Below, piece after piece: positions 37,794 through 39,620 of a stretch of DNA of 64,000 nucleotides. How positions within the stretch are numbered: the first letter of the stretch is position 1; each line of letters starts with the position of its first letter. The notes below the pieces were generated by a model. It was given only the letters and a program-made list of their open reading frames with translations, had not been told where the DNA came from and did not search any database. The position numbers were made by a program, and so were the translations under genes. This stretch comes from Escherichia phage vB_EcoS_HASG4: sequence record NC_100331.1; one strand, given 5' to 3'.

Positions 37794-37822
37794 TTGACAT
37801 TTTCGCGGGGGTAGTGTAAAGT
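37794..37822 (+). promoter_or_regulatory. host sigma70-type promoter (TTGACA-17-TAAAGT)
   Basis: ttgaca at 37794-37799, 17-bp spacer, taaagt at 37817-37822; differs from the phage cassette used by neighbours. Confidence 0.65.
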
Positions 37823-37884
37823 ATATGTTATGGATGAGTGATCAAAGAGACACACATTTTCTATATACTAGGAGGTGTCAAAAA

Positions 37885-38877
37885 ATGACAGAAGAAGTAG
37901 CTAAGAGTCCTGAGACCGTCGCTAGCGTTGCAGCAGAACTGCACCGTCACGAGGAATCAGATAAGAAAAAGTGGGAGAAGGTCAGAGCCTACGAAGAGAA
38001 ACATCGCGAACACGATGAAGATGAAGAAGATGATGATGATGATGAACATTGTCATAAATATGGAAAACATAAAATGCAAGAACCAGTAAACGTATTTACT
38101 AATGGCTTCCCTGGCCTAATGGGTGGTTACCCAGCAAACGCAGGTGCTTTCGGTGGTGAAGGTATGGGACTATTTGGAGCTATCCTAATTGGTGCTCTAC
38201 TAACAGGCGGATTCGGTGGTTTCGGTGGATTCGGTGGACGTGGTGTAGTTGGTGAAGGTACCGCAGTTGATGCAGTACTTCAGAACCAAGATACCGCTAG
38301 TATTCTAGCAGCTATTAACACTACTCGTACAGAAGCTAACCAGGGTACTGGAGCTGTTTTAAGCGCAGTTAACAATGGTTTTAGCCAGACATCCCAAAAC
38401 CAGAGCCGTGATACTCAGTCTGTACTAACTACGATCTATGGTACAGGTGCTAATCTGTCTAATCAGATCTGCCAGGAAACTCGCAACGTTATTCAGGGTC
38501 AGTTCGATCTTTCTCGCCAGATTGATCAATCTTTCGCAGCTAACCAGATAGCTCGTGCACAAGATAAGTTTGATTCTGCACAGATCGCTTTCCAGCAGAC
38601 TTTACAAACTAATAACCAGTTTGCTGCTGTTCAGGCTCAGATGTGTGCTAACCAGAACTCTCTGGAACGTCAGATTGCTGAATGTTGCTGTGAACTCCAG
38701 ACTGCGATCGCTGGTGTAACTACTGCGCGTATCCAGGATGAGTTAGATGCCTGTCGCCTACGTGAAGCAATCGCTGCGGGTAGCGGTGCTAACGGTCAGG
38801 TAATTAATCAAATCGCTGTAAGTCTTGGTGCTATCACTCAGACTCTGGCTGGTCTGCAGGCTAAACTGCCGGCTTAA
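37885..38877 (+). CDS. low-complexity protein: poly-acidic N-terminus, Gly-zipper-like hydrophobic segment, Q/N-rich helical C-terminus
   Basis: ORF 37825-38877 trimmed to ATG after TAGGAGGTG; DEDEEDDDDDEH; GLFGAILIGALLTGGFGGFGGFGG; CCC triplet. Confidence 0.65.
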   Translation: MTEEVAKSPETVASVAAELHRHEESDKKKWEKVRAYEEKHREHDEDEEDDDDDEHCHKYGKHKMQEPVNVFTNGFPGLMGGYPANAGAFGGEGMGLFGAILIGALLTGGFGGFGGFGGRGVVGEGTAVDAVLQNQDTASILAAINTTRTEANQGTGAVLSAVNNGFSQTSQNQSRDTQSVLTTIYGTGANLSNQICQETRNVIQGQFDLSRQIDQSFAANQIARAQDKFDSAQIAFQQTLQTNNQFAAVQAQMCANQNSLERQIAECCCELQTAIAGVTTARIQDELDACRLREAIAAGSGANGQVINQIAVSLGAITQTLAGLQAKLPA

Positions 38878-38898
38878 AATTAAGGGGAGGAGCCCATT

Positions 38899-39315
38899 AT
38901 GAGTAAATATGGTTTTGTAAACAACGGATTTAATCAACAAATGGGCTCCCAGCAGCCCGTTCCGGGTCTGGATAATCCTTACCTACAACAGTTGCAACAG
39001 CGTTTAGCAGAAGCGCAACAGATGCAGCAACAACTCCAGCAAACCCCTGGAAGTGTGAGTCCTATGCAAATGATGCAGCAAATGAGCGGGCAGTCGCAAA
39101 TGCCTCAACAAATGCAGCAACAGGTGCCTCAGCAGCAAGTTCAGCAACAAACCCAACAACCGCAGGTTTCTGCGGAAGGACAGGCAGTACTAGCCCTTTT
39201 CGAAGATTTCGCAAAGACAGAGGATGGGAAACAGCTTGTATCACTTATGGGTAAGTTTAATAGCTTCTGCCAAAGCCAAGTTGCAAAAGCTCAAAATGGT
39301 GGTAATAACTCCTAA
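38899..39315 (+). CDS. glutamine-rich low-complexity protein
   Basis: 138 aa; RBS GGGGAGGAG; QQMQQ repeats. Confidence 0.6.
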   Translation: MSKYGFVNNGFNQQMGSQQPVPGLDNPYLQQLQQRLAEAQQMQQQLQQTPGSVSPMQMMQQMSGQSQMPQQMQQQVPQQQVQQQTQQPQVSAEGQAVLALFEDFAKTEDGKQLVSLMGKFNSFCQSQVAKAQNGGNNS

Positions 39316-39324
39316 GGAGGAATT

Positions 39325-39519
39325 ATGTGTTGCAGAAAATCTGTTTCGTGCTGCCCAATGCCTGTAGCACGTTGTTGCTCTCCAGCAATGTTTACACAAA
39401 TACCGGCGTTCAATCCCTTTGCCTTTAAGCCTATTCTTATCCTGCCCCCTAGAGTAGATTTTCAGTCAAGATTGGCCTCCCGTATGGGTGGTTGCTGTAA
39501 CAAGAGTATATGGTTCTAA
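39325..39519 (+). CDS. small Cys-rich peptide (four CC dyads)
   Basis: 64 aa; RBS AAGGAGG; MCCRKSVSCCP...RCCSP...GGCC. Confidence 0.5.
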   Translation: MCCRKSVSCCPMPVARCCSPAMFTQIPAFNPFAFKPILILPPRVDFQSRLASRMGGCCNKSIWF

Positions 39520-39532
39520 AAACCAGTAATAA

Positions 39533-39570
39533 AAAGCCCCTAGTCGAAAGACTTAGGGGCTTTTCTTTTA
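39533..39570 (+). terminator. rho-independent terminator
   Basis: agcccctagtcgaaagacttaggggcttttctttt. Confidence 0.7.
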
Positions 39571-39582
39571 TCTTAAATACAG

Positions 39583-39620
39583 AAAAGCCCTGCGCTCTCC
39601 AGGGAACGCAGGGCTTACTT
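39583..39620 (-). terminator. hairpin terminator for convergent SPFH gene
   Basis: gccctgcgctctccagggaacgcagggc stem-loop just past the minus-strand stop. Confidence 0.55.

What the first reader, a model, noticed from the sequence alone, without database searches (positions are those of the whole stretch)
37794..39620. Opposite-strand operon of three low-complexity proteins under a host-type promoter, inserted between tRNA genes
All neighbouring early genes are minus-strand and use the conserved phage cassette. This block is plus-strand with its own TTGACA-17-TAAAGT promoter, a ~60 nt leader, strong RBSs and hairpin terminators. It encodes (i) a 330-aa protein with a poly-acidic N-terminus, a Gly-zipper-like hydrophobic stretch (GLFGAILIGALLTGGFGGFGGFGG) and a Q/N-rich helical tail with a CCC triplet; (ii) a 138-aa glutamine-rich protein; (iii) a 64-aa peptide with four CC dyads. 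No enzymatic motifs. I suspect a membrane-directed accessory module (exclusion, host takeover or anti-defence), but that is speculation.
Basis: partly seen in the sequence, partly recalled or inferred. Interest (0 to 1): 0.8.

Follow-up and report, generated by a model that had tools for sequence, protein, structure and literature searches.

The report
Mobile three-gene membrane cassette in T5
This block is the already-annotated but functionally unknown T5 operon P12–T5.077–T5.078–T5.079: a dispensable, self-contained cassette that moves between unrelated phages, and whose main protein belongs to a very large uncharacterised family of phage membrane-anchored coiled-coil proteins.

Summary
The window is the T5-like phage vB_EcoS_EASG3. 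The block is the T5 unit [quoted passage not shown], annotated in the T5 GenBank record with all three proteins "hypothetical".

- **Dispensable:** the viable T5 st0 deletion removes it, and a CRISPRi-ART screen scored all three genes "Not Fit".
- **Variable:** it is detectable in about half of T5-type phage records, and phiR2-01 carries pnuC/nadR at that site instead.
- **Mobile:** the same three-gene cassette occurs in divergent T5-likes, in a 62-kb phage with a Mu-type portal and, on the opposite strand, in a lambdoid phage beside a complete holin/lysozyme/Rz-Rz1 cassette.
- **p3 is a real gene:** it is always 60-69 aa, starts MCC (MCGCC in one), and has pN/pS 0.34.
- **p1** has one glycine-zipper membrane segment and about 200 helical residues with a CCC triplet. 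Its family has at least 4,397 clusters, mostly crAss-like phages, and no Pfam, NCBIfam, PADLOC or PDB assignment.

A weak profile resemblance to influenza HA2 and coronavirus S2 looks architectural rather than homologous. A spanin role is unlikely, because carriers have their own spanins. Function is unproven. My best guess, at low confidence, is an accessory envelope module such as superinfection exclusion.

The parts
37780..37822 (+). Promoter, equivalent to T5 'P12': A/T-rich TTTTTAAAG upstream element, -35 TTGACA (37794-37799), 17-nt spacer, -10 TAAAGT (37817-37822). The following bases are ATATG; T5 early promoters have ATATT there.
   Evidence: Consensus scan. T5 annotation 'promoter P12'. 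Same layout upstream of p1 in the divergent T5-likes L019 and L020. The early-promoter ATATT motif is taken from PMC7472727.
37830..37884 (+). About 55-nt 5' leader, with RBS AGGAGG at 37870-37875.
   Evidence: Read from the sequence. No Rfam family matches in 36900-41400 apart from tRNAs.
37885..38877 (+). p1, the T5.077 homologue (330 aa). N-terminal helix at residues 12-44, a length-variable acidic/His-rich tract, a glycine-zipper membrane segment at about residues 93-118 (nt 38161-38238), long helices at residues 135-171 and 177-327, and CCC at residues 267-269 (nt 38683-38691).
   Evidence: ORF. PHROG 8119, E = 8e-206. Homologues and alignment. AlphaFold2 model with 59 sequences: helix 12-44 pLDDT above 90, long helix about 80. 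Hydropathy and charge counts. Family size.
38899..39315 (+). p2, the T5.078 homologue (138 aa). N-terminal helix YLQQLQQRLAEAQ, a variable Q/P-rich linker, and a conserved C-terminal domain EGQAVLALFEDFAKTEDGKQLVSLMGKFNSFCQS that includes Cys124, invariant among the 12 aligned cassette p2 proteins (the more distant L042 p2 lacks it).
   Evidence: PHROG 7894. 116 homologues. Alignment A4. Homologues sit next to p1 homologues in L019-L022 and L042.
39325..39519 (+). p3, the T5.079 homologue (64 aa). Starts MCC, has four CC dyads, is rich in Pro and Phe, and has no signal peptide or lipobox. It is not annotated in this phage's own GenBank record.
   Evidence: ORF. In 19 T5-like loci it is intact at 64 aa, with pN/pS 0.34 in frame against 0.92 and 1.90 out of frame. 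A 60-69-aa ORF starting MCC (MCGCC in L022) lies -1 to 9 nt after p2 in L019, L020, L021 and L022.
39532..39573 (.). Bidirectional intrinsic terminator: AAAAAGCCCCUAGUC-GAAA-GACUUAGGGGC followed by a U run.
   Evidence: RNA fold. T5 annotation 'efficient bidirectional rho-independent transcription terminator'. Equivalent hairpins follow p3 in L019-L022.
39582..39621 (-). Second hairpin, the terminator of the convergent SPFH gene. It contains the GCGC motif (about 39592-39595) at which the T5 record marks a major single-strand nick.
   Evidence: Terminator scan on the minus strand. RNA fold. T5 misc_feature.
37100..37669 (-). Left flank, not part of the cassette: T5.076-like Toprim/primase-like protein, transcribed divergently.
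   Evidence: Pfam Toprim_2 and PHROG 849. Labelled anti-retron and 'Semi-Fit' in the supplement of PMC11879866.
39640..40587 (-). Right flank, not part of the cassette: T5.080-like SPFH/Band-7 membrane protein, transcribed convergently.
   Evidence: Pfam Band_7, E = 1e-18. The gene is kept in phiR2-01, which lacks the cassette.

Best explanation
The block is the T5 accessory operon P12-T5.077-T5.078-T5.079. It is a self-contained three-gene cassette with its own sigma-70-type promoter and terminator, it moves between unrelated phages, and it is dispensable for growth in the laboratory.

**Inferred anatomy**
- p1 inserts in the inner membrane through its single glycine-zipper segment.
- Its 85-residue charged N-terminus stays in the cytoplasm. 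The roughly 205-residue Q/N-rich helical domain lies in the periplasm.
- There p1 oligomerises into a long coiled-coil rod, stapled by its cysteines (the CCC hallmark).
- p2 and p3 have no export signals. They are taken to be cytoplasmic partners of the N-terminal domain, which only the cassette-type p1 proteins have.

**Inferred function**
The rod acts at the cell envelope of the infected cell. The most likely role is gate-keeping against trans-envelope events such as DNA entry by later-arriving phages (superinfection exclusion or competition). It is not the phage's own lysis fusogen.

Identity, mobility, dispensability and family membership are shown by tool results. Topology, oligomerisation, partner binding and function are inferred.
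For: **Identity**
- 100% match to MK373799. The T5 record annotates P12, T5.077-079 and the terminator.

**Dispensable and variable**
- The st0 deletion spans T5.068-T5.081, and all three genes are 'Not Fit'.
- The block is in 220 phage records, against 438 that carry the T5-type holin/endolysin.
- phiR2-01 has pnuC/nadR at the site.

**Mobile, moron-like unit**
- The p1+p2+p3+terminator unit occurs in divergent T5-likes, in a 62-kb phage with a Mu-type portal, and in a lambdoid phage on the strand opposite its antiterminator and lysis genes.
- A p1+p2 pair without p3 occurs in an 88-kb phage.
- Block GC is 45.6% against 39.2% for the window.
- Block identity is at least 95% in 135 of 220 records. 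The figure is 43 of 438 for the lysis genes and 42 of 467 for the neighbouring SPFH gene.

**Membrane rod**
- There is one hydrophobic segment (Kyte-Doolittle 1.72). The N-side flank KYGKHK is basic and the C-side flank is acidic.
- AlphaFold2 gives helices 135-171 and 177-327.
- CCC is present in 248 of 258 family members sampled.

**Not the lysis fusogen**
- The lambdoid carrier has its own Rz and embedded Rz1.
- The crAss-like phage cr116_1 has a u-spanin-like lipoprotein beside its holin.
- T5-likes are described as having i/o-spanin pairs (PMC4342426 and PMC6658699).
Against: - No phenotype, timing or localisation data exist for any of the three proteins.
- Exclusion genes are typical of temperate phages. 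Two pattern scans of 100,044 species-representative genomes found no prophage copy.
- Distant family members sit in late or structural modules of crAss-like phages and other phages. That placement fits a morphogenetic or lysis-linked role better than exclusion.
- The family also turns up in viruses assigned to Methanomassiliicoccales archaea, which argues against a role tied to the Gram-negative periplasm.
- In the one variant that lacks p3 (L042), p1 has lost CCC and p2 has lost its Cys. This hints that all these cysteines share one compartment, which conflicts with the proposed split between periplasm and cytoplasm.
- The N-in/C-out topology rests only on the charge bias around the membrane segment.
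Confidence: 0.3

Rival explanations
1. Lysis-linked envelope protein. p1 works like an i-spanin or class I fusion protein, anchored in the inner membrane with a periplasm-spanning coiled coil that bridges or fuses membranes. Alternatively it acts as a lysis-timing regulator (antiholin-like), with p2 and p3 as cytoplasmic regulators.
For: - The architecture matches: an N-terminal membrane segment followed by a long helical, Cys-bearing ectodomain.
- The family profile's best PDB matches are influenza HA2, aligned from the fusion peptide onward (E = 8e-5), and coronavirus S2 HR1.
- Relatives lie within about 2 kb of holin or endolysin genes in cr116_1 and cr273_1.
- In several group-B loci relatives lie next to small multi-TM proteins. 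In the lambdoid phage the cassette lies next to the holin.
- Spanin and lysis-inhibition genes are typically dispensable in the laboratory, as this operon is.
Against: - Carriers already have canonical spanins.
- p3 has no lipobox or signal peptide, so it cannot be an o-spanin.
- In T5 the operon lies 17 kb from the holin and endolysin. In the lambdoid phage it is antisense to the late transcript.
- There is no Pfam or PHROG spanin or holin match.
- The HA2 similarity is marginal. Typical H1 and H3 HA2 sequences score 9-12 bits, and segment-preserving shuffles reach 12 bits.
Confidence: 0.2
2. Virion or assembly-associated fibre. The family encodes a disulfide-stapled coiled-coil fibre, such as a head or tail whisker, or a membrane-tethered assembly factor. 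The T5 copy would be an optional decoration that was never noticed because structural work commonly uses deletion strains such as st0 (from my own knowledge).
For: - Relatives lie inside structural modules: right after a large protein that may be the major capsid protein in group-B loci (my guess from position), after tail-fibre-like genes in a myophage and in Edwardsiella phage eiAU, and between terS and the capsid genes in cr116_1.
- GenBank records label the crAss-like members 'spike protein/glycoprotein' or 'outer capsid protein/viral fiber'.
- The family occurs in viruses of both bacteria and archaea.
- A CC or CCC knot would be a good staple for an extracellular fibre (inference).
Against: - In T5 the operon is an isolated unit with a sigma-70-type promoter among early-region genes, not part of the late structural block.
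- A strongly hydrophobic, TM-like segment is unusual for a fibre.
- crAss001, whose virion structure is solved, has no family member between its endolysin gene (gp30) and its capsid gene (gp32), where the family gene sits in cr116_1, and is not among the tblastn matches. Its head fibre gp29 is an unrelated 118-residue protein.
- p2 and p3 do not look like structural proteins.
Confidence: 0.1
3. Anti-defence or host-takeover module acting from the cytoplasmic face of the membrane. The His/acidic N-terminus of p1, the Cys-rich p3 and p2 would form a metal-binding complex that neutralises a host immune system or host function.
For: - The tRNA region is an accessory island. The neighbouring T5.076 is labelled anti-retron in the re-annotation of PMC11879866.
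- The cassette is variable, mobile and more uniform than the backbone.
- Some p1 variants have His-rich tracts in the N-terminal domain, and p3 carries four CC dyads.
Against: - There is no similarity to any known anti-defence or defence protein (PADLOC and Pfam both empty).
- Most of p1's conserved sequence is the long helical domain shared with relatives in late gene modules, which lack the N-terminal domain, p2 and p3.
- 'Not Fit' on a K-12-type laboratory host is uninformative either way.
Confidence: 0.1
4. Pore-forming or toxic membrane effector (holin-like or abortive-infection-like). The glycine-zipper segment would oligomerise into a channel, controlled by p2 and p3.
For: - Glycine-zipper (GxxxG) membrane segments are found in channel-forming proteins (from my own knowledge).
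- p1 has a single membrane segment with a large C-terminal domain, which resembles class III (T4 T-type) holins in outline.
Against: - T5 has its own T-type holin, and p1 does not match PHROG 860.
- There is no toxin-antitoxin or Abi signature.
- A roughly 200-residue helical domain conserved across thousands of members is not needed for a simple pore.
Confidence: 0.05

Closest known systems
Phage T5 genes T5.077, T5.078 and T5.079 with promoter P12 and the bidirectional terminator (NC_005859)
   Same: Same unit, same order and same flanks. The coding block is about 91% identical in DNA to a separately deposited T5 fragment (AY734508). The promoter and terminator are annotated in the T5 record.
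   Different: p1 is 330 aa here and 321 aa in T5, because the acidic tract varies in length. This phage's own record does not annotate p3. No function is assigned in any record.
Two-component spanins (lambda Rz i-spanin and Rz1 o-spanin)
   Same: p1 has an N-terminal membrane anchor and a helical, Cys-containing periplasmic domain long enough to cross the periplasm. p3 is small, Pro-rich and Cys-containing, like mature Rz1.
   Different: There is no sequence match. p1 is twice as long and has an 85-residue cytoplasmic extension. p3 has no signal peptide or lipobox. The operon is not in the lysis cassette, and carriers have their own spanins.
Class I viral fusion proteins (influenza HA2, coronavirus S2 HR1)
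   Same: A Gly-rich hydrophobic segment (GLFGAI...) is followed by a polar N/Q-rich heptad helix. These proteins are the best PDB sequence matches of the family profile (E = 8e-5 to 5e-4).
   Different: p1 has no C-terminal membrane anchor. No HR2 or six-helix bundle can be shown. The match is marginal and largely reflects composition and architecture.
Phage accessory membrane genes for exclusion (T4 imm and sp, P22 sieA, T5 llp) and 'morons' in general
   Same: An autonomous promoter-gene-terminator unit, variable between close relatives, dispensable, and encoding a predicted envelope protein.
   Different: There is no sequence relationship and no exclusion phenotype has been tested. No copy was found in prophages of the representative genomes. 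Distant relatives sit in late modules.
Uncharacterised crAss-like phage proteins labelled 'spike protein/glycoprotein' or 'outer capsid protein/viral fiber' (PHROG 16490 and 9288)
   Same: Same superfamily: an N-terminal Gly/aromatic hydrophobic segment, a helical domain of about 200 residues, and a C-x-CCC-E motif.
   Different: These members lack the N-terminal cytoplasmic domain, p2 and p3. They carry a Pro-rich, Gly/aromatic C-terminal tail. They sit in a late module with a beta-rich partner protein and DUF7841.

Membership tests
PHROG 8119 / PHROG 7894 (T5.077-like and T5.078-like proteins, function unknown) | Full-length match to the family profile | tested here: met
   p1 matches PHROG 8119 at E = 8e-206 over residues 1-330. 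p2 matches PHROG 7894 at E = 5e-80 over residues 1-138.
Moron-type autonomous accessory cassette | Own promoter and own terminator flanking the genes | tested here: met
   TTGACA-17-TAAAGT is conserved in divergent relatives and annotated as P12. The terminator hairpin folds with z = -6.3. Promoter activity itself was not measured.
Moron-type autonomous accessory cassette | Present or absent between close relatives; found in unrelated phages; composition differs from the backbone | tested here: met
   220 records carry the block against 438 with the T5-type lysis genes. phiR2-01 has pnuC/nadR at the site instead. The cassette occurs in Mu-portal, lambdoid and 88-kb phages. GC is 45.6% against 39.2%.
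Two-component spanin (i-spanin / o-spanin) | i-spanin: N-terminal membrane segment plus a periplasmic coiled-coil domain | tested here: inconclusive
   The architecture is compatible. Against membership: topology is untested, an 85-residue N-terminal extension is present, and there is no Pfam Phage_lysis or PHROG spanin match.
Two-component spanin (i-spanin / o-spanin) | o-spanin: lipoprotein signal peptide with a lipobox Cys | tested here: not met
   p3 starts MCCRKS, has no hydrophobic signal region, and its maximum Kyte-Doolittle value is 1.13. The same lipobox scan did find Rz1 in L022 and a lipoprotein in L007, but found nothing in the cassettes of L021, L022 or L042.
Two-component spanin (i-spanin / o-spanin) | Located in the lysis cassette and serves as the phage's only spanin | tested here: not met
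   Holin and endolysin are at 20130-21250, 17 kb away. L022 has Rz/Rz1 and cr116_1 has a u-spanin-like gene. T5-likes are reported to have spanins.
Class I viral fusion protein (HA2-like) | Significant sequence or profile similarity | tested here: inconclusive
   Profile A3 against PDB: the best HA2 chain has E = 8e-5, and 126 chains score E < 1, most of the 60 listed being HA or spike proteins. However, common H1 and H3 HA2 sequences score only 9-12 bits and segment-preserving shuffles reach 12 bits. Foldseek found no match.
Class I viral fusion protein (HA2-like) | C-terminal membrane anchor and an HR1/HR2 hairpin (six-helix bundle) | tested here: not met
   p1 has only one hydrophobic segment, N-terminal to the helix. 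The monomer model is one extended helix. An oligomeric hairpin could not be modelled with these tools.
Holin, class III (T4 T-type) | Match to the T-holin family; adjacent to the endolysin gene | tested here: not met
   p1 has no hit to PHROG 860. The phage has a separate T-type holin next to its endolysin.
Superinfection exclusion protein | Expression reduces infection or DNA entry by secondary phage | not testable with these tools
   This needs plating and DNA-entry assays. Only the predicted envelope location and the accessory nature of the operon are available.
cAMP-dependent protein kinase catalytic subunit (label carried by p2 in several GenBank records) | Protein kinase domain | tested here: not met
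   p2 is 138 aa with no Pfam kinase hit. The label appears in records such as HMD-P4, JLBYU40 and Sepoy. It most likely stems from the Q-rich low-complexity region.
Known anti-phage defence or anti-defence proteins (PADLOC-DB) | Profile match | tested here: not met
   The three window proteins and three cassette-type relatives gave no family at E <= 0.1. The only hits were weak ones (E 0.03-0.08) for a crAss-type relative.

The most novel reading that the evidence does not exclude
The p1 superfamily has thousands of members in crAss-like, T5-like, lambdoid and other phages, and in archaeal viruses. It may be a previously unrecognised class of phage envelope-bridging or fusing proteins built like class I viral fusion proteins: a Gly-rich fusion-peptide-like anchor, a polar heptad helix and a cysteine staple. 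These would be distinct from spanins and possibly evolutionarily related to HA2/S2-type fusogens. On this reading the T5 cassette is a regulated three-component version (p1 with cytoplasmic p2 and the Cys-rich p3).
Probability: 0.1. Interest if true: 0.85.

Novelty: new variant of a known kind. Interest (0 to 1): 0.5.

Why it matters
The operon has been on the T5 map for about 20 years without a function. This work links it to one of the larger uncharacterised protein families in phage metagenomes: at least 4,397 clusters at 90% identity, mostly from gut crAss-like phages. It also shows that the T5 version is a compact, dispensable, self-promoted cassette in a genetically tractable phage and host. 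That makes T5, or simple plasmid expression in E. coli, a practical way into the biology of the whole family. If the protein proves to be an envelope-bridging or exclusion device, it would add a new component to how phages manipulate the Gram-negative envelope. If it proves to be a decorative fibre or a lysis regulator, that would still give a name to thousands of 'hypothetical' crAss-like genes. The work also corrects a recurring mis-annotation of p2 as a 'cAMP-dependent protein kinase catalytic subunit' and shows that the often-unannotated p3 is a real gene.

Tried and rejected
1. **Spanin assignment: rejected.** p3 has no lipobox, and carriers have canonical spanins.
2. **Homology to influenza HA2: not accepted.** The profile hit at E = 8e-5 did not survive my control. 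H1 and H3 HA2 score 9-12 bits and segment-preserving shuffles reach 12.2 bits. Foldseek against PDB and BFVD found only insignificant coiled-coil matches.
3. **p3 as a detached copy of the Pro/Gly/aromatic C-terminal tail of crAss-type members.** An HMM built from 88 such tails scores the p3 proteins at noise level.
4. **The Q-rich 128-aa protein next to the myophage relative as a p2 homologue.** hhalign gives a probability of 3%.
5. **Equivalence to the crAss001 head fibre gp29.** gp29 is an unrelated 118-residue protein, and crAss001 shows no family member.
6. **Prophage or lysogenic-conversion origin.** Two pattern scans of 100,044 species-representative genomes found no relative. Two earlier attempts failed because the alignments lacked a conserved stretch to search with.
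7. **Pfam, NCBIfam and PADLOC searches of the three proteins: nothing significant**.
8. **Rfam search for a leader element: nothing**.
9. **A p2 profile search against PDB** gave only low-complexity hits to designed repeat proteins.
10. **Literature.** There were no hits for the T5 locus tags or the PHROG/DUF identifiers. I found no T5 RNA-seq time course that would give the operon's temporal class.
11. **phiR2-01 proteomics** could not be used, because that phage lacks the cassette.

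
Full report
**What the window and the block are**

The region 37700-39700 is 100% identical to Escherichia phage vB_EcoS_EASG3 (MK373799, Tequintavirus). It matches more than 200 T5-like phages at 80-99% identity. In the reference T5 record the same unit is annotated as promoter P12, T5.077, T5.078, T5.079 and an 'efficient bidirectional rho-independent transcription terminator'. 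All three proteins are 'hypothetical', and a major DNA nick site is marked just downstream.

**Checking the observation**

The ORFs, the promoter hexamers, the ribosome-binding sites and the peptide features are all as described.

The promoter match alone is not beyond chance: 2 sites were found in the region against 3.7 expected from shuffles. What supports it is conservation. The same layout, TTTTAAAG..TTGACA-17-TA[AG]AGT, precedes p1 in two T5-like phages whose p1 is only 36-44% identical.

The two hairpins fold far better than shuffled sequence (z = -6.3). The first, flanked by an A run and a U run, is the bidirectional terminator. The second terminates the convergent SPFH gene.

The block is bounded by a Toprim gene and an SPFH/Band-7 gene, and only beyond those by tRNA-Ser(gct) and tRNA-Arg(tct). 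No Rfam element lies in the leader.

**It is accessory and variable**

- The deposited genome of the viable T5 st0 deletion mutant joins T5.068 to T5.081. It therefore lacks the operon and both flanking genes.
- In the CRISPRi-ART knock-down screen of T5 (PMC11879866, supplementary tables), T5.077, T5.078 and T5.079 are each 'Not Fit'. They are classed 'unknown function' there.
- The coding block is detectable in 220 phage records, whereas the T5-type holin/endolysin pair is found in 438.
- Yersinia phage phiR2-01 carries pnuC and a nadR-like gene at the same position, between tRNA-Ser and the SPFH gene.
- The block is more uniform than its surroundings. Identity is at least 95% in 135 of 220 records. 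The figure is 43 of 438 for the lysis genes and 42 of 467 for the adjacent SPFH gene.
- Its G+C is 45.6% against 39.2% for the window.

**It is a mobile three-gene cassette**

Fetching the contigs that encode distant p1 homologues gave three kinds of carrier:

- Two divergent T5-like phages, again with the cassette on the plus strand among minus-strand tRNA genes.
- A 62-kb phage with a Mu-type portal, where the cassette diverges from the terminase gene.
- A lambdoid phage, where it lies on the strand opposite the antiterminator and the holin/lysozyme/Rz genes, between the two.

An 88-kb phage carries a more distant p1+p2 pair (hhalign probabilities 95% and 97%). It has no p3, no CCC in p1 and no Cys in p2.

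Two pattern scans of 100,044 representative bacterial and archaeal genomes found no copy. The cassette therefore appears to live in phage genomes rather than in common prophages.

**The three proteins**

*p2* is more than 'glutamine-rich'. It has a conserved N-terminal helix and a linker of variable length. It ends in a strongly conserved 40-residue domain (…LFEEFAKTEDGKQLVS..GKFNSFCQS) whose Cys is invariant among the 12 aligned cassette p2 proteins. The label 'cAMP-dependent protein kinase catalytic subunit' in several GenBank records has no support.

*p3* is real.
- It is intact at 64 aa in 19 T5-like loci, with pN/pS 0.34 in its own frame against 0.92 and 1.90 in the other two frames.
- In every divergent cassette an ORF of 60-69 aa follows p2 within -1 to 9 nt. 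It starts MCC (MCGCC in the lambdoid copy) and carries CC dyads and Pro/Phe-rich stretches. The called-gene lists of three of those four contigs omit it.
- It has no signal peptide or lipobox.

*p1* has the following parts:
- a confidently predicted N-terminal helix at residues 12-44 (pLDDT above 90);
- a hypervariable acidic/His-rich tract;
- one hydrophobic glycine-zipper segment;
- about 205 residues predicted as two long helices, 135-171 and 177-327 (pLDDT about 80).

The charge bias around the hydrophobic segment (KYGKHK before it, acidic residues after it) suggests N-in/C-out. That is the only topology evidence.

**A very large family**

- A profile search of 1.84 billion representative proteins found 692 relatives, 164 of them at E <= 1e-10.
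- A profile search of the 90%-identity clusters found at least 4,397 proteins among only 8,000 scored candidates. Most come from contigs of 90-106 kb.
- tblastn places relatives in crAss-like phages, where they are labelled 'spike protein/glycoprotein' or 'outer capsid protein/viral fiber'. It also places them in Edwardsiella phage eiAU, in an Aeromonas phage and in viruses assigned to Methanomassiliicoccales.
- These relatives lack the N-terminal domain, p2 and p3. They share the hydrophobic segment, a helical domain of similar length, and a CCC triplet in 248 of 258 sampled members.
- There is no match in Pfam, NCBIfam or PADLOC, and the three PHROGs that match are all 'unknown function'.

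In those phages the gene sits in late modules:
- near holin, endolysin and terS in cr116_1 and cr273_1;
- after tail-fibre-like genes in eiAU and in a myophage;
- in 'group B' viral contigs, immediately followed in 19 of 20 distinct loci by a beta-rich protein of 92-108 aa beginning 'MASP…' (the remaining locus ends at the family gene), with a DUF7841 protein a few genes further on in the locus tested. DUF7841 is also downstream in crAss-like loci.

crAss001, whose virion structure is solved, shows no family member. Its head fibre gp29 is unrelated.

**What it resembles**

By sequence, the best PDB matches of the family profile are influenza HA2 chains, aligned from the fusion peptide through helix A (E = 8e-5 to 5e-4). 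Coronavirus S2 HR1 constructs follow. This probably explains the 'spike' labels in GenBank.

My control tempers it. Ordinary H1 and H3 HA2 sequences score 9-12 bits, and shuffles that keep the fusion-peptide and helix segments apart reach 12 bits. Foldseek found nothing significant. I read the similarity as shared architecture and composition, a Gly-rich hydrophobic segment followed by a polar heptad helix, and not as demonstrated homology.

The same outline fits an i-spanin, but the spanin reading fails its tests:
- p3 cannot be an o-spanin.
- The lambdoid carrier has Rz with an embedded Rz1.
- cr116_1 has a lipoprotein with a C-terminal membrane segment, the u-spanin layout, beside its holin.
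- T5-like phages are described as having spanin pairs.

**Most likely mechanism**

*Shown:* an autonomous, mobile, dispensable three-gene unit. Its core protein belongs to a huge conserved family and has one membrane-type segment and a long helical, Cys-bearing domain.

*Inferred:*
- p1 is anchored in the inner membrane with its helical domain in the periplasm, forming a disulfide-stapled coiled-coil rod.
- p2 and p3 are cytoplasmic partners of the N-terminal domain that only cassette-type p1 proteins have.
- The module acts on the envelope.

Which envelope process it affects is not determined. I rank the possibilities as follows:

| Reading | Confidence |
|---|---|
| Accessory gate-keeping or exclusion role | 0.3 |
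| Lysis-linked role (auxiliary bridge/fusogen or timing regulator) | 0.2 |
| Virion fibre or assembly role | 0.1 |
| Cytoplasmic anti-defence complex | 0.1 |
| Pore or toxin | 0.05 |

A good deal of probability remains for something not listed. The late-module location of distant relatives and their presence in archaeal viruses are the main arguments against my first choice. The joint loss of all the cysteines in the one p3-less variant is unexplained and may mean that the cysteines share one compartment.

**Temporal class**

I found no transcript data for this operon. PMC7472727 reports that all known T5 early promoters have ATATT after the -10 element. P12 has ATATG there, which is suggestive at best. 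Strand does not help, because T5 early genes lie on both strands.

**Verdict**

What is new here:
- the cassette's mobility;
- the reality of p3;
- the conserved domain of p2;
- the link to a very large uncharacterised family with a CCC hallmark and a class-I-fusion-like outline;
- the exclusion of the spanin and kinase labels.

Noticed in passing
window 37100-37669 (-): The T5.076 homologue is a Toprim/primase-like protein (Pfam Toprim_2, PHROG 849). The re-annotation in PMC11879866 classes it as 'anti-defense: subverts retron-mediated defense' and scores it 'Semi-Fit'. It is transcribed divergently from the cassette, and phiR2-01 lacks both it and the cassette.
   Followed up: partly
window ~39585-39616 (GCGC at about 39592-39595): The T5 record marks one of the phage's major single-strand nick sites (consensus Pu-pGCGC) inside the second terminator hairpin, between the cassette and the SPFH gene. 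This window has the same GCGC motif in the same place.
   Followed up: no
L010 (phiR2-01, HE956708) 9523-11257: At the position of T5.076-T5.079, phiR2-01 carries a PnuC-like nicotinamide riboside transporter and a NadR-like NMN adenylyltransferase on the minus strand. This site between tRNA-Ser and the SPFH gene seems to be a swap locus for accessory genes.
   Followed up: partly
window 38899-39315 and GenBank records such as PQ462666, NC_105514, NC_048760: p2 is labelled 'cAMP-dependent protein kinase catalytic subunit' in many deposited T5-like genomes. It is 138 aa with no kinase domain, so the label is a propagated artefact of its Q-rich region.
   Followed up: yes
window 37885-39519 compared with 20130-21250 and 39640-40587: Across phage records the cassette is more uniform than the backbone. 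Identity is at least 95% in 135 of 220 records, against 43 of 438 for holin/endolysin and 42 of 467 for the adjacent SPFH gene. This suggests recent spread by recombination or unusually strong constraint.
   Followed up: partly
L043-L087 (IMG/VR 'group B' loci), e.g. L083 5466-5759 and 6410-6877: In 19 of 20 distinct loci the distant p1 relative is immediately followed by a beta-rich protein of 92-108 aa ('MASPxTxGTTA…RFQNTS…IYLKK'). In L083, the one locus tested, a DUF7841 (PF25223) protein lies three genes further on. DUF7841 is also downstream of the family gene in crAss-like loci L005 and L016. This looks like a conserved late module of unknown function shared across very different phages.
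   Followed up: partly
H82/H88 (Caudoviricetes sp. vir215 and vir335, host given as Methanomassiliicoccales): Members of the p1 superfamily are present in viruses assigned to methanogenic archaea, so the family is not confined to phages of Gram-negative bacteria.
   Followed up: no
L007 (cr116_1) 4172-4552: A 126-aa protein has an N-terminal lipobox (LSAC) and a C-terminal membrane segment, which is the u-spanin layout. It lies immediately upstream of the annotated holin, and the overlapping annotated CDS (4208-4552) is labelled 'hypothetical protein' in the record.
   Followed up: partly
L005, L009 (crAss-like loci): The crAss-like family members and their neighbours contain in-frame TAG codons, consistent with TAG recoding of late genes. 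This is why the fetched gene 'did not translate to the query' under the standard code.
   Followed up: no
window 36909-36983 (-) and 41198-41271 (-): Rfam finds a tRNA at 36909-36983 that ARAGORN missed; it corresponds in position to T5's tRNA-Ile2(CAU). ARAGORN's odd 'tRNA-Ser(act)' at 41198-41271 lies in the region T5 annotates as the stable 'RNAX' of unknown function.
   Followed up: no
window 36199-36882 (-): An HNH homing endonuclease with a LuxR-type HTH (the hegA homologue) sits between tRNA genes just left of the region. It is one of several such endonucleases in the tRNA cluster.
   Followed up: no
window 38010-38050 (p1 residues ~42-60) across alignment A1: The acidic tract of p1 is a length-variable low-complexity insert. 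Some T5-like variants replace or extend it with His-rich runs (for example HHYHHHHHEHY…EHEHH). Together with the Cys-rich p3, this hints at metal binding on the cytoplasmic side.
   Followed up: no
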